Shown: piece by piece, positions 1,311 through 7,118 of the stretch | Layout: the number at the start of each line of letters is the position of its first letter | Position numbering within the stretch: the first letter of the stretch is position 1 | Assembly (NCBI RefSeq): GCF_000092105.1 | Contig: NC_014148.1 | Span: 1,020,001-1,052,000 of the forward strand | Direction: 5' to 3' | From: Planctopirus limnophila DSM 3776 | GTDB taxonomy: Bacteria > Planctomycetota > Planctomycetia > Planctomycetales > Planctomycetaceae | Length of the DNA stretch: 32,000 bases | Program-made: the position numbers and the translations under genes | Notes under the pieces: generated by a model | What the model was told of the DNA's origin: nothing | Database searches by the model: none | What the model saw: only the letters and a program-made list of their open reading frames with translations

Positions 1311-1889
1311 TCAGGACGTAGAGGGAAGCCTCGCATAGATGCAGGAGTGGCGTAGTTGGCCGTCGGGGGATTGCATGGTGTTGTGTAGGACTCCCTCCAG
1401 GTGAAAGCCGCAGCGTTCGGCCAGTCGGCGTGAGCGGACGTTGGCCTCGTCCGTCACGAGTTCCACGCGCTTGGCTTTCATGCCGACTAGCGCCCAGTTC
1501 GTCAGCGCAAGGACGGCTTCGGTCGCGTAGCCTTTGCCAGCTTCGGAAGTACGGACCCAATACCCAACCTCTGTTCTGGGCAGAGACCAATCGGTGCGAT
1601 GCATCCCCGCCGAGGCGACCAGTCGCCCGGTGCTCCTGGAAAACGCCAGGTAGGGCAGGTCCGCGCGGATCAGGAAGTTGGCTTCCGCCCGGCGGCAGCG
1701 GGCCTCGGCAGTCTGAAGTGTCGGCTCCTCGGCGACCCACGGCAAGAACCACAAGTGCTCACGCAGCTCCGCGATGGACTCGAGCAGGGCCTCGTGGAGC
1801 TCAGGCGCATCAGATGTCCGGTAGGGGCGGAGCTCAAGACGCTCGGTTTCAAACAATAGAGGAACCGGGAAAAGCAGGGGATCGGCCAT
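1311..1889 (-). CDS. GNAT family N-acetyltransferase (RimJ/RimL-like)
   Basis: ATG at 1889, 192 aa. It has the N-terminal ETERLELRPYRTSDAPELHEAL and the central VGYWVRTSEAGKGYATEAVLALTNWAL segment typical of RimJ/RimL-type GNAT acetyltransferases. The gene sits in a patch that is visibly more GC-rich than its neighbours; long shadow ORFs on both strands reflect this. Confidence 0.85.
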   Translation of the reverse strand: MADPLLFPVPLLFETERLELRPYRTSDAPELHEALLESIAELREHLWFLPWVAEEPTLQTAEARCRRAEANFLIRADLPYLAFSRSTGRLVASAGMHRTDWSLPRTEVGYWVRTSEAGKGYATEAVLALTNWALVGMKAKRVELVTDEANVRSRRLAERCGFHLEGVLHNTMQSPDGQLRHSCIYARLPSTS

Positions 1890-1904
1890 GTGTGTTCCGA
1901 GGCC

Positions 1905-2152
1905 TAGCAGGTTTGCAAGTGCTGAAGTGCGTTAGATCGCTACCGCAGATTGGCGGCGTGGCAGGGACTTGTCAACATTTCGCTAGGCGGCCTGTGACCG
2001 GGAGGCAGTGGAGGTTGTGTTTGGAGCGAGTGCGATGTTTGAGTCGAGGTTTCTTGGATGAGGCCCTGCGATGGGTGGCTGACTCGCATCAAATTTTCTG
2101 TGGCCTTGCCAGCCCGGTAGAAATCGGAACTTCAACCGGGGCCACGCTGCGG
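1905..2152 (-). repeat. Intergenic direct repeat, copy A (~250 bp), paired with 3235-3495
   Basis: It aligns end to end with 3235-3495 in the same orientation. Two strongly conserved blocks are separated by a diverged segment with a 13-nt indel. It fills the gap between the stop at 2167 and the GNAT ATG at 1889. On the minus strand it carries TTGACA (1975-1970), a 17-nt spacer, then CAATCTGCGGTA (1952-1941). Confidence 0.9.
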
Positions 2153-2166
2153 ATCTGTTTAGCCCA

Positions 2167-2400
2167 TCAGCGAACCGACACCCATTGTTCATCGCCATTT
2201 TCGTCATACCGGCGTCGTTCTAATTGATCATTTGCCGTACGAAGATAGGCGACGTTTCGCACCGTTTCATTATCTGGATGGGAAATGACCCAATAGTAAT
2301 CCCAGTTTGAATCGGGGGATTTGTCGTCGCACCAGAGTTCAACGTGAGGATGTTCAGCGCAAAGTTGTGCGTAGGTCAAAGAATCCTCAATTCTCGACAT
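2167..2400 (-). CDS. Hypothetical small acidic Trp-rich protein (orphan)
   Basis: Minus-strand ORF. I prefer the internal ATG at 2400 (MSRIEDSLTYAQL..., 77 aa) because GGAG lies 6 nt upstream. The longest-ORF ATG at 2433 has no Shine-Dalgarno. No family recognised. Confidence 0.55.
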   Translation of the reverse strand: MSRIEDSLTYAQLCAEHPHVELWCDDKSPDSNWDYYWVISHPDNETVRNVAYLRTANDQLERRRYDENGDEQWVSVR

Positions 2401-2497
2401 CCTGTTCTCCAAACAACGAGTGATCACGATCATCTAGCTGTGGGGGAAAATTCTGTTTTGTAGGTCTAGCGGATTCCGGCCTGGATAGAATTCTCTG

Positions 2498-3217
2498 TTA
2501 TAGCATGTTTACGACGATGCCATTACGGATTGAGTATCTGCGGGCATCGAGTTCGGGTGATTCGGAGTATACGAAAAAATCATTCTGCGATTCTTTTGAC
2601 ATCTCGCACCCGACACTGATCGTAGATGTGCGCGAGTTATAGCGAGCACGGTGGATGCGGGAAGCACCTGATGATTCGATGGCAACCCAACTGATAGAGG
2701 GTTCAGGCTCACCCAGCGAATAGACGATCGTGGAGTCCTGTGATCGTAGAAAATGGATCAGAGATTCCGCGTCGTCATCGGATGCACCGTTATAAATCGG
2801 GTAATCAAATCCACGATCATCATGTCGAAAAACAGTTCGTATCCGCGACTTGGAGTCGTTCGATATTCCCGATGTTCGATTGGTTCGAATTGCAGCGGGA
2901 AGCAATTGTAGGTCTTGCAAAGTCTGCCAGGCAAATTCGTGCGAATCGGAAAAAGGAATCCAGACCTGACATTCGTTGGGGCAAATGACAAAGAAGACGT
3001 CGATAAGGAAAAGCTGGTCATCAATCCGTCCGTACCAGCGTCTTACGGGAGACGGGAAAGAATCTTCGTCAGGATTCTCTTTGTATGGCGACGGAATCTC
3101 CGAGTAGATGGAGTGGTCAACATCGAAGGCATAACACTGCCATTCGCGGCAGGTTCGTGGACGAGATTCGGCAATCTCAAAGAATTGTTCACGCTCAAGC
3201 CAGGTCAGTCGCCTCAT
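2498..3217 (-). CDS. Hypothetical protein (orphan, ~239 aa)
   Basis: The track start at 3256 is a TTG that lies inside the intergenic repeat. The first ATG is 3217 (MRRLTWLEREQFF...). It lies 60 nt from the repeat's CAATCT box, close to the 58-nt spacing upstream of the GNAT ATG. No family recognised; the coding call rests on ORF length and same-strand packing. Confidence 0.55.
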   Translation of the reverse strand: MRRLTWLEREQFFEIAESRPRTCREWQCYAFDVDHSIYSEIPSPYKENPDEDSFPSPVRRWYGRIDDQLFLIDVFFVICPNECQVWIPFSDSHEFAWQTLQDLQLLPAAIRTNRTSGISNDSKSRIRTVFRHDDRGFDYPIYNGASDDDAESLIHFLRSQDSTIVYSLGEPEPSISWVAIESSGASRIHRARYNSRTSTISVGCEMSKESQNDFFVYSESPELDARRYSIRNGIVVNML

Positions 3218-3234
3218 CGATTGGAACCCAAGGG

Positions 3235-3495
3235 ATATCAGGTTTTCGATTGCCAAAGTGCGTTGAAAGTTACCGCAGATTGGCGGTGTGGTAGGAACTT
3301 GTCAACATTTCGTTGGTTGCTGCTCCTTGAGTTCCTATGGCCAGTCGGCAGTGGAGATTGAATTTGGAATGTGTGCAATGTTTCCGTCGGGGTGACTTGT
3401 ATGAGGCCCTGCGATGGTTGGCTGACTCGCATCAAATTTCCTGCGGCCTTGCCACCCCGGTAGAAATCGGAATTTCAACCGAGGTCACCCTGCGA
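3235..3495 (-). repeat. Intergenic direct repeat, copy B (~260 bp), paired with 1905-2152
   Basis: Same element as 1905-2152. It fills the gap between the stop at 3514 and the start of the 2498-3217 gene. On the minus strand it carries TTGACA (3305-3300), a 17-nt spacer, then CAATCTGCGGTA (3282-3271). Confidence 0.9.
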
Positions 3496-3513
3496 AGCTT
3501 GTGTGTTGACTCT

Positions 3514-3885
3514 TTATTGAACGCCTCCCTGAAGATCGACAAGATCACCGATGACCTGAGGGTAATATCGCATGATATCGTCGCGAAATGTGTTTCGTAC
3601 ATCGGCGACTCCATCATGCCAGTCCTCGAAAAAGCCGGGACGATCCCAATCTGCGGGACCTGAGTATCGGCAGCCATCAACGTCTGTATGAATCCAGAAC
3701 TTTGGTTCATCCGCATTGAATATTTCAAACGCATCAATATCATGCAGTGTTGGCTCGCCGAACTGATTAACGATCCGGAACGTATCACACTCAATCGCAA
3801 GCACATCGTAGCTTCTGTCTTGCCGAAGCGAAGTTCGTTCATCTCGGCCATCCGGCCGAAGTGGGCGTGTGAGATAGACCTTCAT
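3514..3885 (-). CDS. Hypothetical small acidic Trp-rich protein (orphan)
   Basis: ATG at 3885, TAA at 3514-3516, 123 aa (e.g. FWIHTDVDGCRYSGPADWDRPGFFEDWHDG). No family recognised; the call rests on ORF length and co-orientation. Confidence 0.55.
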   Translation of the reverse strand: MKVYLTRPLRPDGRDERTSLRQDRSYDVLAIECDTFRIVNQFGEPTLHDIDAFEIFNADEPKFWIHTDVDGCRYSGPADWDRPGFFEDWHDGVADVRNTFRDDIMRYYPQVIGDLVDLQGGVQ

Positions 3886-3994
3886 GGGCTGTGCTTTACA
3901 GGCGAACGTCGAACATAATTCGCATAGTTAAGACGTATGGATTGGAATGCCAGCTGAATTCCAGGCTCCCCCGTCGATTCTTCTACTTGCACCA

Positions 3995-4023
3995 ACGGGG
4001 CACTCTGTAGCAGAGTGCCCCGT
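3995..4023 (-). terminator. Perfect 13-bp stem hairpin downstream of the sulfatase gene
   Basis: ACGGGGCACTCTG-tag-CAGAGTGCCCCGT lies 21 nt past the sulfatase stop (4044) on the minus strand. There is no strong T-run, so it is either an intrinsic terminator or an RNA-stabilising hairpin. Confidence 0.5.
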
Positions 4024-4043
4024 CATGGTCTTCTGTAGTCCCG

Positions 4044-5621
4044 TTACTTCCCGCTGGCACCGGCCTCGATCATCTTCTGGATTTTTTCCAGGTTGAATGA
4101 GCCGGGTGTCTGGCTGGGTGGATACTCCTTCATCGTCATCAGAAACTTGCCCGCCATCTGCTGCATCGGCGTGATCACAAAAACGCGGTCGAGGAACCAG
4201 TCGTTATAGGTGTTCGAATTGTGCTGTGAGCGCTCGAAGGGATCGCGGCGCAGATTGAACAACAGCGGCACACGCAGCTCGGTAAAGGGTTCTCGCCACA
4301 CGCCAAATGCCTCCCCCCGGTTCTCAAGAAACACAGCCTTCCATGCATCGTATCGCAGGGCGACAATCTGGCCGTCGTCATTCACATAGATAAATTCGTT
4401 CCGGGGCGATTGATCCGTCTTGCCGCCGAAGTAATCGAGCTGATTGTAGCCATCCACATAGTTGCGGTATTTGCGGCCGTTGAGTTCGACCCCTTGTGCG
4501 AGCTTTTGCTTGATATCGCTGGCACCAGCGGCGGCAGCCAGTGTGGGGAGCCAGTCTTCGTGAGAGACGATGCCATTCAGTGTTTTGCCTGCCGGAAACC
4601 GGCCTGGCCAGCGCACGAAACAGGGGACACGGTAAGCACCTTCCCAGTTCGAGTTTTTCTCGCTGCGGAAAGGCGTCGTGCCCGCATCCGGCCAGGTGTT
4701 GTAGTGCGGGCCGTTATCCGTGGAATACATGACGATCGTGTCTTTGGCGAGCCCCAGTTCATCGAGCAGTTTGAGCAATTCGCCCACGTGACCATCGTGC
4801 TCGATCATGCCATCGGTGTATTCGTCATTTCCCGGATGACGGTTCTCTTTCTTGACATGTGTGCGGAAGTGCATTCGTGTGCCGTTCCACCAGCAGAAGA
4901 AGGGCTGGTCGGCATTTTTCTGGCGGGTGATAAAGTCCTTAGCGGCCGCCACGGTTTCTTCGTCGATGGTCTCCATGCGCTTTTTGGTCAATGGGCCAGT
5001 GTCCTCGATTGTCTGACCACCCTTGCCATCGGCTTTGCTGCGAATAATGCCGCGTGGCCCGTAGTTCTCGATGAAAGTCTTGCCATTGGCCATCCTCATG
5101 TTGGTGGGATAATCCTCATTCTCCGGTTCCTCCTGAGCGTTCAGGTGGTAGAGGTTTCCGAAGAACTCGTCGAAGCCATGCATTGTGGGAAGATGCTCGT
5201 CGCGATCGCCCTGGTGATTCTTACCAAACTGACCTGTCGCGTAGCCTTGTGACTTCAGGACGGTCGCGATGGTCACGTCGGTCTTCTGCCAGCCTTCTTT
5301 CGCTCCGGGCAGACCCACCTTGGTCATGCCAGTGCGGACAGGGACGTTGCCTCCCAGAAAAGCAGCGCGGCCCGCCGTACAACTTTGCTGACCGTAATAA
5401 TCGGTGAAGGCCAGTCCTTCTTTGCCCAGTCGATCGATATTCGGCGTCTGGTAGCCCATCATGCCGCGGCTGTTGTGGCTGATATTCCAGGTGCCGATAT
5501 CGTCGCCCCAGATGACCAGAATGTTGGGCTTCCTGGTTTGGGCCAGCGCTACTCCCGTGTGAGCCACGAGAACAAGCGCAACAGCGAGCATGGAAAGCCA
5601 CCGGCTTCCTTTGAGAAACAT
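4044..5621 (-). CDS. Secreted arylsulfatase (formylglycine-dependent sulfatase family)
   Basis: The track start 5651 is TTG. The ATG at 5621 is preceded by AAGGA and gives the signal peptide MFLKGSRWLSMLAVALVLVAHTGVALAQ. Family evidence is PNILVIWGDDIG, the sulfatase signature SCTAGRAAFLGG (a C-x-A-x-R variant of the formylglycine motif), GKNHQGD, and a typical length. Confidence 0.9.
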   Translation of the reverse strand: MFLKGSRWLSMLAVALVLVAHTGVALAQTRKPNILVIWGDDIGTWNISHNSRGMMGYQTPNIDRLGKEGLAFTDYYGQQSCTAGRAAFLGGNVPVRTGMTKVGLPGAKEGWQKTDVTIATVLKSQGYATGQFGKNHQGDRDEHLPTMHGFDEFFGNLYHLNAQEEPENEDYPTNMRMANGKTFIENYGPRGIIRSKADGKGGQTIEDTGPLTKKRMETIDEETVAAAKDFITRQKNADQPFFCWWNGTRMHFRTHVKKENRHPGNDEYTDGMIEHDGHVGELLKLLDELGLAKDTIVMYSTDNGPHYNTWPDAGTTPFRSEKNSNWEGAYRVPCFVRWPGRFPAGKTLNGIVSHEDWLPTLAAAAGASDIKQKLAQGVELNGRKYRNYVDGYNQLDYFGGKTDQSPRNEFIYVNDDGQIVALRYDAWKAVFLENRGEAFGVWREPFTELRVPLLFNLRRDPFERSQHNSNTYNDWFLDRVFVITPMQQMAGKFLMTMKEYPPSQTPGSFNLEKIQKMIEAGASGK

Positions 5622-5754: not shown

Positions 5755-5796
5755 CCGCAGATTGTTCAGTGCGGCGCGGCAATGTCAAACTATTTG
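5755..5796 (-). repeat. Partial third copy of the core of the 1905/3235 repeat (promoter-like box)
   Basis: CCGCAGATTG(ttcagt)GCGGCGCGGCAaTGTCAAaCtATTTG matches the CCGCAGATTGGCGGCGTGGCAgggacTTGTCAACATTTCG core of copies A and B. On the minus strand it reads TTGACA (5788-5783), 18 nt, then CAATCTGCGG (5764-5755). It lies 138 nt upstream of the sulfatase ATG. Confidence 0.45.
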
Positions 5797-6016
5797 TTTC
5801 TAAGACGCAGCGAGACTCTTGCCCATTTGACTTACCAGAAAACGAAAAACCCCTTCGGCAGGATGGCCCAGACGTTGCTTTGGGCGTCTGGGTTCGTCAG
5901 AACAGGAAACCATTCATTACAACAGACAGCGACTGCCGTAGCGTCGAGCCGTTGGAATTTATGTTGGTGAAGCGTCTCGACGAACATCTTTGGAAACGGC
6001 ATTCCACTGAGGCTGG

Positions 6017-6412
6017 CTATTTTTTTTCCTCGCGGCCCAGGCCGAGGCCCTTTTTTATGCCTTTGATCGCGCCACTTGCAGCACCACCAGCAACGCCTTC
6101 CGTCACTTTTTTCGCCTCTTCAGCGACGGAACTCTCCCCGTGCCGTTTGGAGCGGGTGACGACAATGTCGTCAGAGTTTTTGGGGAGGCCGTCCGGGCCG
6201 TTGGACCTCACCTCAAGTGTGTAGTTGAGGACCCCTTTCTCAATCGATGTGGACAATGGGCGACCGTAACTGTCCATGGCCGATGTGTTAAAGTCTTTAC
6301 CGCCTTCCCAGCGATCGGCCTCTGTATTGAGAACAGACAAGGTGCGTTCGTAGGCACTCGGCCCACAGCCAGAGATCATCATCACACCTAACACGGCAAA
6401 CGAACGCCACAT
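6017..6412 (-). CDS. Small lipoprotein, function unknown
   Basis: ATG at 6412. MWRSFAVLGVMMISGC is a signal peptide plus lipobox (ISG|C). The C-terminal tail is Gly/Lys-rich. 131 aa. Confidence 0.6.
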   Translation of the reverse strand: MWRSFAVLGVMMISGCGPSAYERTLSVLNTEADRWEGGKDFNTSAMDSYGRPLSTSIEKGVLNYTLEVRSNGPDGLPKNSDDIVVTRSKRHGESSVAEEAKKVTEGVAGGAASGAIKGIKKGLGLGREEKK

Positions 6413-6959
6413 TGTGATTAACTCTCCTGATGAATCCGCTAAGTTTCAATGAAACACGAAACCTTGCACAACAGCAGACCGCATATGCCATAAGCTCGGG
6501 CTATTCAAGTCTGTGTTGGTGAACGGGCACGACAAACACGAATTGTAACGCCAATCAACAGATGATGGCCAACCGTTTTTCTCGCATCAGGACTTATCGG
6601 CACAGACTCAGGGGAATCGAGCGAGTTCCAAGGTTCGATGCTTCTTGCTCGCTATGCGGCGGTCGGGTCACTTTTGCGGAAACTGGCCGGCAATGTGAGC
6701 ACGCAGCGTCTTTCTCGTTGGCTTTCCTGTACCTTACGGCACCTAGACCTCCAGAGCGGCGTCTGGGTCACTCCTGCGAGAAGGGCTTTGGCCGCGGGAC
6801 ACGCGGAGGGTGGGGCTTCTTGTGCCTGCGGCACCCGGCCACGAGTTGGCCTGGCCACCCTTTCACGAATGATTGACAGTGTTGTAGGGTGCCGCACACA
6901 GGCACGGCACATAGCCGGATTTTGGATCCGGTGTGCCAGCCAAATTGTCCTTCAAACGA

Positions 6960-7005
6960 AAAACCCCTTCGGCGAGTTGATCGCAGCGAAGGGGTTTTGT
7001 TTTTC
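6960..7005 (-). terminator. Rho-independent terminator after tRNA-Leu (bidirectional shape)
   Basis: The 12-bp stem AAAACCCCTTCG ... CGAAGGGGTTTT is flanked by T-runs on both strands. On the minus strand the stem is followed by TTTTTCGTTTG. It lies 30-75 nt downstream of the tRNA 3' end. Confidence 0.7.
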
Positions 7006-7033
7006 AAGGTCAACTGTCAGCCAGCACTGCAAT

Positions 7034-7118
7034 TGCCGGAGGTGGGAGTCGAACCCACACGAGGGGTGAACCTCGCCGGATTTTGAATCCGGTGCGTCTG
7101 CCATTCCGCCACTCCGGC
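7034..7118 (-). tRNA. tRNA-Leu (anticodon CAA)
   Basis: The reverse complement reads GCCGGAGTGGCGGAATGGCAGACGCACCGGATTCAAAATCCGGCGAGGTTCACCCCTCGTGTGGGTTCGACTCCCACCTCCGGCA.
- Acceptor stem of 7 bp: GCCGGAG/CTCCGGC.
- Anticodon stem CCGGA/TCCGG with loop TTCAAAA, giving anticodon CAA.
- Long variable arm.
- T-arm GTGGG-TTCGACT-CCCAC.
- Discriminator A; CCA is not encoded. Confidence 0.93.

What the first reader, a model, noticed from the sequence alone, without database searches (positions are those of the whole stretch)
1905..3495. Two ~250-bp direct repeats fill whole intergenic gaps and bracket a two-gene unit
1905-2152 and 3235-3495 align over their full length in the same orientation.

There are two well-conserved blocks. 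On the + strand they read TACCGCAGATTGGCGG.GTGG.AGG.ACTTGTCAACATTTCG and ATGAGGCCCTGCGATGG.TGGCTGACTCGCATCAAATTT.CTG.GGCCTTGCCA.CCCGGTAGAAATCGGAA.TTCAACCG. A diverged middle segment with a 13-nt indel separates them.

Each copy begins 15-20 nt after the stop of one minus-strand gene (2167, 3514). Each ends 15-20 nt before the ATG of the next, unrelated gene: the GNAT at 1889 and the orphan at 3217.

No transposase, integrase or terminal inverted repeats accompany them, so they do not look like an IS or MITE.

Possible roles:
- a portable promoter/leader module;
- a structured RNA;
- recombination sites that would let the 2167-3217 gene pair loop out.
Basis: seen in the sequence. Interest (0 to 1): 0.7.

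Follow-up and report, generated by a model that had tools for sequence, protein, structure and literature searches.

The report
Duplicated promoter-and-hairpin spacer between genes
Two diverged copies of one ~270-bp intergenic spacer, carrying an RNA hairpin and a promoter-like box pair, separate small orphan genes in a strain-variable islet of the Planctopirus limnophila chromosome; it is a local, fairly ordinary duplication, not a mobile element or a known RNA.

Summary
Window 1897-2156 and 3228-3499 are direct repeats (77-86% identical, BLAST E 1e-59) that each fill a whole gap between minus-strand genes.

The window is Planctopirus limnophila DSM 3776. I call the repeat R1.

R1 was found only at this locus, in this strain and three close relatives. 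One exact 21-mer found nothing else in 185,579 species genomes or the metagenome collection. Other patterns found nothing in viral contigs, BLAST found nothing in plasmids, and two searches of translated R1 found no other copy.

It is not an IS or MITE, not an integron attC site, not a conserved small ORF, and not an Rfam family.

Comparing the two copy types shows short conserved boxes in diverged sequence:
- a 15-bp hairpin just after the upstream gene, kept through G-U pairs on the gene strand;
- TTGACA-N17-CAATCTGCGG about 50 nt before the next start codon.

A third copy of that box pair lies upstream of the neighbouring sulfatase gene (5756-5788).

Relatives differ in which small genes sit in this islet. 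Several gene-content differences begin exactly at R1's upstream edge, and other breakpoints fall inside R1.

Best reading: a duplicated 3' hairpin plus promoter and leader spacer that also supplies homology for gene gain and loss. Promoter activity and recombination are inferred, not shown. Interest is low to moderate.

The parts
1890..2166 (-). R1 copy A: the whole gap between orf88 (stop at 2167) and GNAT (ATG at 1889). Homology to copy B runs about 1897-2156.
3218..3513 (-). R1 copy B: the whole gap between orf123 (stop at 3514) and orf239 (ATG at 3217). Homology to copy A runs about 3228-3499.
2108..2145 (-). Hairpin of copy A (GUGGCCCCGGUUGAAGU-UCCG-AUUUCUACCGGGCUGGC). It lies directly after the sharp upstream edge CGCAG (2147-2151).
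   Evidence: (I6)
3451..3488 (-). Hairpin of copy B (GUGACCUCGGUUGAAAU-UCCG-AUUUCUACCGGGGUGGC). It lies directly after the edge CGCAG (3490-3494).
1944..1975 (-). Promoter-like box pair of copy A: TTGACA (1975-1970), 17-nt spacer, CAATCTGCG (1952-1944). It lies about 50 nt upstream of the GNAT ATG.
3274..3305 (-). Promoter-like box pair of copy B: TTGACA, 17-nt spacer, CAATCTGCG. It lies about 55 nt upstream of the orf239 ATG.
5756..5788 (-). Third, diverged copy of the box pair (TTGACA-N18-CAATCTGCG), about 100 nt upstream of the sulfatase gene. It is conserved in L001 at 5400-5432.
2167..3217 (-). The bracketed two-gene unit: orf239 (2498-3217, Plim_0787) and orf88 (2167-2433; NCBI annotates a 77-aa form). 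Neither has a Pfam, NCBIfam or PADLOC match.
3514..3885 (-). orf123: an orphan gene upstream of copy B. It is absent from the same locus in L001 and L007. The predicted fold is a small beta-barrel plus helices, with no PDB match.
1311..1889 (-). GNAT acetyltransferase gene downstream of copy A. It is absent in L007-L009.
1890..3950 (.). Strain-variable islet with lower GC (about 0.49 against 0.56-0.62 in the flanks), lying between the sulfatase terminator region and GNAT/transglutaminase.

Best explanation
R1 is a duplicated complete intergenic regulatory spacer.

Read on the gene (minus) strand it has four parts:
1. a sharp upstream edge, CGCAG;
2. a 15-bp stem-loop that would form in the 3' end of the upstream gene's transcript, possibly a terminator, stabiliser or processing site;
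3. about 130 nt of weakly constrained sequence;
4. a sigma-70-like promoter (TTGACA-N17-CAATCT, followed by GCGG) and a leader of about 50 nt for the downstream gene.

The two copies serve GNAT and orf239. A third copy of the promoter boxes serves the neighbouring sulfatase gene.

The duplication is old: the two copy types are about 77% identical, while orthologous copies in relatives are 91-96% identical.

R1 acts as the linker between gene units of a small hypervariable islet. The shared linker sequence gives homology at which units are added, swapped or lost between strains.

Shown: the anatomy, the conservation pattern, the restriction to this locus, and the variable gene content with junctions at or inside R1.

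Inferred: promoter activity, the hairpin's function, and recombination as the mechanism.
For: Repeat and anatomy.

Conservation between the two copy types:
- hairpin 92-96%;
- -35 box 93%;
- -10 box 97%;
- promoter spacer 74%;
- middle 60-72%;
- leader 65-69%.
Short conserved boxes 17 nt apart with a variable spacer are what selection on a promoter leaves.

Box pair:
- TTGACA-N15-20-AATCTGCG occurs 3 times in the window, all on the minus strand in three intergenic gaps within 4 kb, against 0.00 expected.
- The sulfatase copy is conserved in L001.

Hairpin:
- It is predicted in every full copy.
- 96.7% of cells pair. Six pairs vary on one side only, each staying paired in most sequences through G-U on the gene strand.
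- The sense strand folds more stably than the antisense strand in 5 of 7 copies.

Constraint: truncated or decayed copies after orf88 in L001 and L007 are only 70-81% identical to each other and to copy A. The DNA aligned across orf88 and orf239 is 90-96% identical.

Linker role:
- The same upstream edge, CGCAG(G)GTG, abuts five different upstream sequences: orf88, orf123, orf155 in L007, the orf102 side in L001, and an unknown sequence in L006.
- L001 carries an extra gene (orf102) with R1-derived sequence on both sides.
- L007 has orf131'-orf89-orf155 in place of orf123, and lacks GNAT.
- L018's homology to the window ends at 3501, at the R1 edge.
Against: - No transcript data exist, so no start site or 3' end is known.
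- The -10 hexamer CAATCT matches TATAAT at only 2 of 6 positions, and the generic promoter scan did not report it.
- The hairpin has no U-tract, so it is not a canonical intrinsic terminator. It shows no double compensatory change, and the shuffle control is uninformative. Its fold z-scores are modest, from +1.2 to -2.5.
- Some conservation could come from gene conversion between copies rather than selection.
- Only 5 full copies from 4 genomes are available.
- Breakpoints in relatives are few and scattered.
- Copy number in the complete genome could not be counted directly.
Confidence: 0.55

Rival explanations
1. Neutral scar. R1 copy B is just the leftover of a one-off duplicative insertion, for example a single-crossover integration of a circle carrying R1 plus orf239-orf88, or replication template switching. 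It has no function beyond what the original GNAT upstream region had.
For: - Only two full copies exist, both at one locus.
- Nothing else turned up in the exact-pattern scans of genomes, metagenomes and viral contigs, the plasmid BLAST, or the translated searches.
- No whole-element structure signal and no Rfam match.
- Truncated copies in relatives decay.
Against: - Copy B has kept its -35 and -10 boxes and hairpin at 92-97% while the sequence around them fell to 60-74%.
- Copy B is 95.6% conserved in L007.
- A third box pair upstream of the sulfatase gene is conserved across strains.
- An old neutral scar should have decayed evenly along its length.
Confidence: 0.2
2. Dedicated cassette-recombination site. 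R1, or its hairpin and CGCAG edge, is recognised by a site-specific recombinase encoded elsewhere, and gene units are inserted and excised at it as in an integron.
For: - The upstream edge is sharp and identical next to five different upstream sequences.
- Units of gene plus linker appear to have been added at least twice: orf239-orf88, and orf102 in L001.
- The genes are co-oriented small orphans with lower GC.
- A homolog-bearing metagenome contig (L015) is a 13-gene array of Pfam-less genes, 12 of them co-oriented, with internal repeats.
Against: - No integrase or recombinase among the ORFs scanned against Pfam in the 32-kb window.
- The hairpin arms are in the wrong order for attC: GTTGAA comes first and TTCTAC second.
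- The unit is 260-280 bp rather than 55-141 bp, and no end-to-end inverted repeat is conserved in both copies.
- Other breakpoints are scattered: inside the hairpin, in the decayed middle region, and at the -35 box.
- Homologs of orf239 and orf123 elsewhere carry no R1.
- No loop-out product was seen.
Confidence: 0.1
3. Structured non-coding RNA or small-protein gene. R1 encodes an sRNA, a cis-regulatory leader, or a 50-65 aa peptide.
For: - Conserved blocks are present.
- A minus-strand ORF starting TTG-ATG-CGA-GTC is open in the window copies and, read by eye, in L001.
- A local hairpin is present.
Against: - Rfam has nothing, even at E <= 5.
- Whole-element fold z-scores are -0.5 to -1.5 on either strand.
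- RNAalifold gives a covariation term of +1 and only one compensatory pair among 59.
- The leader is only 65-69% conserved between the copy types.
- The small ORF is frame-shifted by the 13-nt indel. In L007 it loses its ATG and gains an in-frame stop.
- The plus-strand ORF is broken by TAG in L001.
Confidence: 0.05
4. Non-autonomous mobile repeat (MITE-like or REP-like) that inserted upstream of GNAT and of orf239.
For: - It is intergenic, has a sharp upstream edge, and contains a hairpin.
- There is a weak inverted match between the edge (CGCAG..GGTG) and the D block (CACC..CTGCG); in copy A this is 17 nt at 82% (I2).
- The same genomes carry another palindromic intergenic repeat family, R2.
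Against: - Homology between the copies continues about 60 nt past the putative right end, up to the start codons.
- No target-site duplication could be seen by reading the junctions.
- The inverted match is not recovered in copy B.
- No further copies were found in the window, in 19 loci, or in the public-collection scans with three exact patterns and a plasmid BLAST.
Confidence: 0.05

Closest known systems
Integron gene-cassette arrays and integrase-less attC clusters (CALIN)
   Same: Small co-oriented orphan genes are separated by a repeated, hairpin-containing element. Gene content differs between close strains, and junctions fall at the repeat edge.
   Different: - No IntI integrase in the window.
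- The repeat is 260-280 bp, not 55-141 bp.
- It lacks the R''/L''...L'/R' inverted-repeat layout, and the GTT/AAC motifs are in the wrong order.
- It carries its own promoter-like boxes, whereas cassettes are normally promoterless.
- Only 2-3 copies exist.
Regulatory intergenic repeat families (REP/BIME, ERIC, Neisseria Correia elements, pneumococcal BOX/RUP)
   Same: Intergenic repeats with stem-loops that can supply promoters, terminators or RNA-processing sites.
   Different: Those families are dispersed in tens to hundreds of copies. The MITE-like ones have terminal inverted repeats and target duplications. R1 was found at one locus only and has neither. This comparison rests on general knowledge of those families, not on a test run here.
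Direct repeats left by single-crossover (Campbell-type) integration or segmental duplication in flexible genomic islets
   Same: Two same-orientation copies of a resident sequence bracket inserted, compositionally different genes. The insert could in principle be lost by recombination between the copies.
   Different: The copies are old (about 77% identical) and share at most 21 identical bases in a row. Both have kept the same short boxes, which suggests each copy is in use rather than decaying.
Orphan cassette arrays at polymorphic toxin/immunity loci (CDI, Rhs)
   Same: Arrays of small, fast-evolving, family-less genes in which conserved border sequence promotes cassette exchange by homologous recombination.
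   Different: In those loci the conserved border is coding sequence of the toxin gene. Here it is non-coding, and no toxin, Rhs or CdiA gene is in the window. The orphan proteins have no match in the PADLOC defence-protein library.

Membership tests
Integron attC site / cassette array | Imperfect inverted repeats, with R'' (RYYYAAC) at the 5' end pairing with R' (GTTRRRY) at the 3' end, spanning the whole site | tested here: not met
   The only conserved hairpin is 38 nt, with GTTGAA in the 5' arm and TTCTAC in the 3' arm, which is the reverse order. No end-to-end inverted repeat is conserved in both copies.
Integron attC site / cassette array | Site length of about 55-141 bp | tested here: not met
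   The repeat unit is about 260-280 bp.
Integron attC site / cassette array | IntI tyrosine recombinase and attI adjacent to the array (not required for CALIN) | tested here: not met
   No integrase domain in any of the 26 window ORFs scanned against Pfam. The rest of the genome could not be searched.
IS element / MITE | Terminal inverted repeats at both ends of the repeated unit | tested here: not met
   Copy A has a 17-nt, 82% inverted match, but its inner arm lies about 60 nt inside the repeated unit. It is not recovered in copy B (alignment).
IS element / MITE | Target-site duplication flanking each copy | tested here: not met
   Reading the junction sequences of five contexts shows no shared or duplicated flanking bases.
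IS element / MITE | Multiple dispersed copies in the genome; transposase present for an IS | tested here: inconclusive
   No further copy in the window or 19 loci. One 21-mer hit in 185,579 species genomes and one in the metagenomes, both at the same locus. No transposase. The complete source genome could not be scanned directly.
Known structured RNA family (Rfam 15) | Covariance-model match at or near the gathering score | tested here: not met
   The whole window at gathering threshold gives only tRNA-Leu. Region 1800-4100 at E <= 5 gives nothing.
Sigma-70-type promoter | -35 TTGACA and -10 TATAAT-like hexamers 16-18 bp apart, upstream of a gene | tested here: inconclusive
   The -35 box is 6/6. 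The -10 box CAATCT is 2/6, though it has the key A2 and T6. The spacer is 17 nt (18 at the sulfatase gene). Both boxes are 93-97% conserved while the spacer is 74%. The generic scan did not report it. No transcription start data.
Intrinsic (Rho-independent) terminator | GC-rich stem-loop directly followed by a U-tract | tested here: not met
   The stem-loop is present and conserved, but GGCAAGGCC follows it rather than a T-run. The terminator scan reports nothing in R1.
Protein-coding small ORF | An open frame with start codon conserved in all copies | tested here: not met
   The frame is shifted by the 13-nt indel. In L007 the ATG is lost and an in-frame TAA appears. The plus-strand frame has TAG in L001.

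The most novel reading that the evidence does not exclude
R1 is the linker of an integrase-independent cassette system in Planctopirus. Each unit would be 'promoter/leader - gene(s) - 3' hairpin trailer'. The near-identical core between trailer and promoter (alignment A3 columns 93-126, 97% identical between copies A and B of this strain) would be the preferred crossover point. Small orphan genes could then be added, swapped and deleted between strains while always arriving with a ready 3' hairpin and promoter.

The GNAT-proximal copies in L006, and less clearly L001, are B-like before this core and A-like after it. L001's extra orf102 is flanked by R1-derived sequence. Both would be products of such exchange.
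Probability: 0.15. Interest if true: 0.5.

Novelty: new member of a known kind. Interest (0 to 1): 0.28.

Why it matters
If the reading is right, this locus is a compact natural example of a regulatory spacer (3' hairpin plus promoter) being copied along with newly acquired genes. New genes then arrive already insulated and expressed, and the copied spacers become the seams along which a small flexible islet is rearranged between strains.

It would also give Planctopirus limnophila, a planctomycete for which genetic tools have been reported (from my own knowledge, not checked here), a candidate compact promoter (TTGACA-N17/18-CAATCTGCGG) shared by three neighbouring genes and easy to test.

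It does not reveal a new class of element. The practical message for the scan is that this is a real but local and largely ordinary feature.

Tried and rejected
**Small ORF in R1**
- The minus-strand ORF (MMRVS...) and the plus-strand ORF (MASRQW...) are both rejected.
- They are frame-shifted by the indel, lose the start and gain a stop in L007, and carry TAG in L001.

**Known RNA**
- Rfam at gathering threshold and at E <= 5 found none.
- Whole-element folds on both strands are no better than shuffles.
- RNAalifold supports only the 5' hairpin.

**MITE or IS**
- No convincing terminal inverted repeats and no target duplication.
- No transposase.

**attC**
- The motif order, length and architecture are wrong.

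**DGR template/variable repeat pair**
- No reverse transcriptase among the scanned ORFs.
- Substitutions are not adenine-specific: 30 transitions and 22 transversions of all types.

**Tandem gene duplication**
- orf88 vs orf123 and orf239 vs GNAT show no similarity.

**Dispersal searches that found only this locus or nothing**
- 21-mer in genome contigs and in metagenome contigs: L001 and L006 only, both the same locus.
- Two patterns in viral contigs.
- Plasmids by blastn.
- nhmmer profile against the window and 19 loci.
- Chimeric multi-frame translation against 5.8 billion proteins: only the window's own spurious ORF, P0015.
- phmmer of the R1A translation against 1.84 billion representatives: P0015 plus two weak multi-stretch hits at E > 1e-4.

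**Does R1 travel with its neighbouring genes?**
- No. orf239 homologs in Blastopirellula and in metagenome contigs (L010-L014) and orf123 homologs (L015-L019) have no R1.

**Function of the orphan genes**
- Pfam, NCBIfam and PADLOC gave nothing.
- AlphaFold models (pLDDT 69.5 and 84.9) have no PDB fold match at E < 0.001.

**Literature**
- Searches for Planctopirus promoters, Planctomycetes intergenic repeats and gene cassettes, and Planctopirus genomic islands found nothing relevant.

**Contig breaks**
- Logan assembly contigs break inside R1, but breaks also occur at non-repeat positions, so this says nothing about copy number.
Full report
**1. The observation**

The repeat is real.
- The repeat finder reports 1991-2156 / 3334-3499 (166 nt, 83%) and 1941-1982 / 3271-3312 (42 nt, 93%).
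- BLASTN of the window against itself gives 1897-2151 vs 3228-3494 with E 1.2e-59.
- MAFFT of the two whole gaps gives 86% mean column identity, with one 13-nt indel.

All flanking genes lie on the minus strand. In transcription order they are:
- sulfatase (5651-4044);
- orf123 (3885-3514);
- repeat B;
- orf239 (3217-2498);
- orf88 (2433-2167);
- repeat A;
- GNAT (1889-1311).

A transglutaminase-like gene converges on GNAT from the other side.

The genes next to the repeats are unrelated to each other. The segment 2100-3900 has GC of about 0.49, against 0.56-0.62 in the flanks. I call the repeat R1.

**2. Source and distribution**

Exact protein look-up identifies the window as the Planctopirus limnophila DSM 3776 chromosome. 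GNAT is ADG66630 and orf239 is Plim_0787.

Inside the 32-kb window there are only the two copies.

Searches for further copies gave the following.
- The longest shared 21-mer was scanned against one genome for each of 185,579 species. It hit one contig, a Planctomyces sp. MAG (L001).
- The same 21-mer in the metagenome collection hit one contig (L006).
- Both hits are the same locus in relatives 93-94% identical to the window.
- Viral contigs and plasmids gave nothing.
- Two searches with translations of R1 against billions of predicted proteins returned only the window's own spurious ORF, plus two weak hits.

There are two caveats.
- The 21-mer is not universal. It is diverged in L007.
- The complete source genome could not be scanned directly.

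Within those limits, R1 is specific to this locus.

**3. What it is not**

- Not a known RNA. Rfam has no match, even at E <= 5.
- Not a globally structured RNA. The whole element folds no better than shuffled sequence on either strand (z from -0.5 to -1.5).
- Not coding. The small ORFs in R1 are not conserved: the 13-nt indel shifts the frame, L007 lacks the ATG and has an in-frame TAA, and L001 has TAG in the plus-strand frame.
- Not linked to a mobility gene. The 26 window ORFs scanned against Pfam include no transposase, integrase or reverse transcriptase. The surroundings are housekeeping genes such as Tad pilus components, an aldo-keto reductase and a peroxiredoxin.
- Not a MITE. A weak inverted match in copy A does not sit at the ends of the repeated unit and is not found in copy B. 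No target duplication is visible.
- Not attC. The attC architecture is not met.

**4. Anatomy from comparing copies**

Five full copies were aligned on the gene strand (alignment A3).
- Three are GNAT-proximal: the window, L001 and L006.
- Two are orf239-proximal: the window and L007.

The two types are 77% identical overall, while orthologous copies are 91-96% identical. The duplication therefore predates the split of these strains.

Conservation between the two types is uneven:

| Segment | Identity between types |
|---|---|
| Hairpin just after the upstream edge | 92-96% |
| CCATCGCAGGGC | 90% |
| CGAAATGTTGAC (contains TTGACA) | 93% |
| 17-nt spacer between the boxes | 74% |
| CGCCAATCTGCGGTA | 97% |
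| Middle | 60-72% |
| Leader, about 50 nt | 65-69% |

Two conserved boxes 17 nt apart with a variable spacer, about 50 nt before a start codon, is the footprint of a promoter.

The same pair, TTGACA-N18-CAATCTGCGG, occurs upstream of the sulfatase gene (5756-5788) and is conserved in L001. In the window the bipartite motif occurs only at these three gaps, against 0.00 expected by chance. It is therefore not the organism's general promoter. It is a local module shared by three neighbouring transcription units.

The hairpin has these properties.
- It has 15 bp and is predicted in every full copy.
- 96.7% of cells pair.
- All six variable pairs change on one side only; almost all variant cells still pair, through G-U on the gene strand.
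- The sense strand is more stable than the antisense strand in 5 of 7 copies.

This favours an RNA-level role in the upstream gene's transcript. However, there is no U-tract and no compensatory double change, so its function remains an inference.

**5. The islet is variable, and the seams are at R1**

| Genome | Gene order |
|---|---|
| Window | sulfatase - orf123 - R1B - orf239 - orf88 - R1A - GNAT |
| L001 | sulfatase - other repeat (R2) - R1 promoter remnant - orf239 - orf88 - decayed R1 (about 146 nt) - orf102 - R2 - full R1 - GNAT |
| L007-L009 | sulfatase - R2 - orf131' - orf89 - orf155 - R1B - orf239 - orf88 - short R1 remnant - about 140 nt - transglutaminase; no GNAT |
| L006 | unknown sequence - R1 - GNAT |

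- The upstream edge CGCAG(G)GTG is the same next to five different upstream sequences.
- A metagenome contig carrying an 87%-identical orf123 (L018) loses homology to the window at 3501, which is the R1 edge.
- Other breakpoints lie inside the hairpin (L007) and at the -35 box (L001).
- The junctions are therefore not at a single site.
- The truncated copies after orf88 have decayed to 70-81%, although the DNA aligned across orf88 and orf239 is 90-96% identical. This suggests that only intact R1 copies are constrained.
- In the first 56 nt, the GNAT-proximal copy of L006 is closer to the B type (91-93%) than to window copy A (84%). Further along it is clearly A type. This hints at exchange within the near-identical core (A3 columns 93-126, 97% between A and B in the window), but it rests on few sites.
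- A and B share at most 21 identical bases in a row, so homologous recombination between them should be rare. That last point is an inference from the general length requirements of RecA-type recombination.

**6. The genes**

- orf239 has 14 homologs, all in Planctomycetes-like contigs. One is in Blastopirellula marina. Some neighbours are NADAR or Macro domain genes.
- orf123 has 6 homologs. One contig, L015, is a 13-gene array of Pfam-less genes with its own internal repeats.
- None of these homolog loci carries R1.
- No family assignment or fold match was obtained for any of the orphan proteins.

**7. Verdict**

R1 is best read as a duplicated intergenic regulatory spacer, consisting of a 3' hairpin, a promoter and a leader. 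It links gene units in a small strain-variable islet and provides the homology at which units are gained and lost.

As far as can be seen, it is a local duplication rather than a new element class.

Rival readings and my confidence in each:
- neutral scar, 0.2;
- dedicated recombination site, 0.1;
- ncRNA or peptide, 0.05;
- MITE-like element, 0.05.

The decisive data are a whole-genome copy count, transcript-end mapping, and a Planctopirus pangenome view of this locus.

Noticed in passing
L001 3301-3324 and 7560-7583; L007 1709-1732; L008 44-67; diverged relatives in window 5843-5937, 6453-6622, 6722-6776: A second intergenic repeat family (R2) built around a near-perfect palindrome, CCCAGACGTC-N6-GACGTCTGGG. 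In L001 it sits directly against the truncated R1 promoter block upstream of orf239. In L007 it follows the sulfatase gene. It may be a REP-like element involved in the rearrangements.
   Followed up: partly
window 6909-6942 vs 7070-7103: An 82% copy of the anticodon-arm region of tRNA-Leu(CAA) (7034-7118, minus strand) lies about 160 nt downstream of the tRNA, just past its terminator-like hairpin. It could be a tRNA fragment or a remnant of an old integration site.
   Followed up: no
window 5840-5859 and 6954-6973; hairpin 6945-7013: The exact 20-mer AAACGAAAAACCCCTTCGGC occurs twice. One copy is part of a terminator-like inverted repeat after tRNA-Leu. The other lies in the gap upstream of the sulfatase promoter-like boxes.
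   Followed up: no
L007 3395-3425 (orthologous to window 3431-3457): Within an R1B copy that is otherwise 95.6% identical, a patch of about 27 nt has 10 substitutions. It covers the 21-mer that is invariant in the other four copies. This may be a local conversion or mutation cluster. It also shows that exact-pattern scans can miss copies.
   Followed up: partly
L007 1699-2469 vs window 6009-6777: The lipoprotein-like orf131 (window 6017-6412) and its upstream region have an 80%-identical copy in L007, placed directly after the sulfatase gene where the window has orf123. L007 begins inside the sulfatase gene, so whether this copy is additional or relocated cannot be told. Either way, segments move within this neighbourhood.
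   Followed up: no
L015 (JGI 3300048585 contig Ga0498913_0007832, 8594 bp): An array of 13 small genes with no Pfam hit, 12 of them on one strand. It includes two orf123 homologs and internal direct repeats of 270-530 bp at 88-97% identity. This is a larger example of a repeat-rich orphan-gene array.
   Followed up: no
window 3647-3656 (+), inside orf123: A fourth exact CAATCTGCGG lies on the opposite strand inside the orf123 coding sequence, with no TTGACA visible upstream of it in the sequence. It is probably chance, although only about 0.06 exact 10-mer matches are expected in the window.
   Followed up: no
window 1430-2227 (+): A 265-aa ORF antisense to GNAT that runs through R1A is present in a public protein collection (MetaClust, P0015). 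It is almost certainly a spurious gene call.
   Followed up: partly
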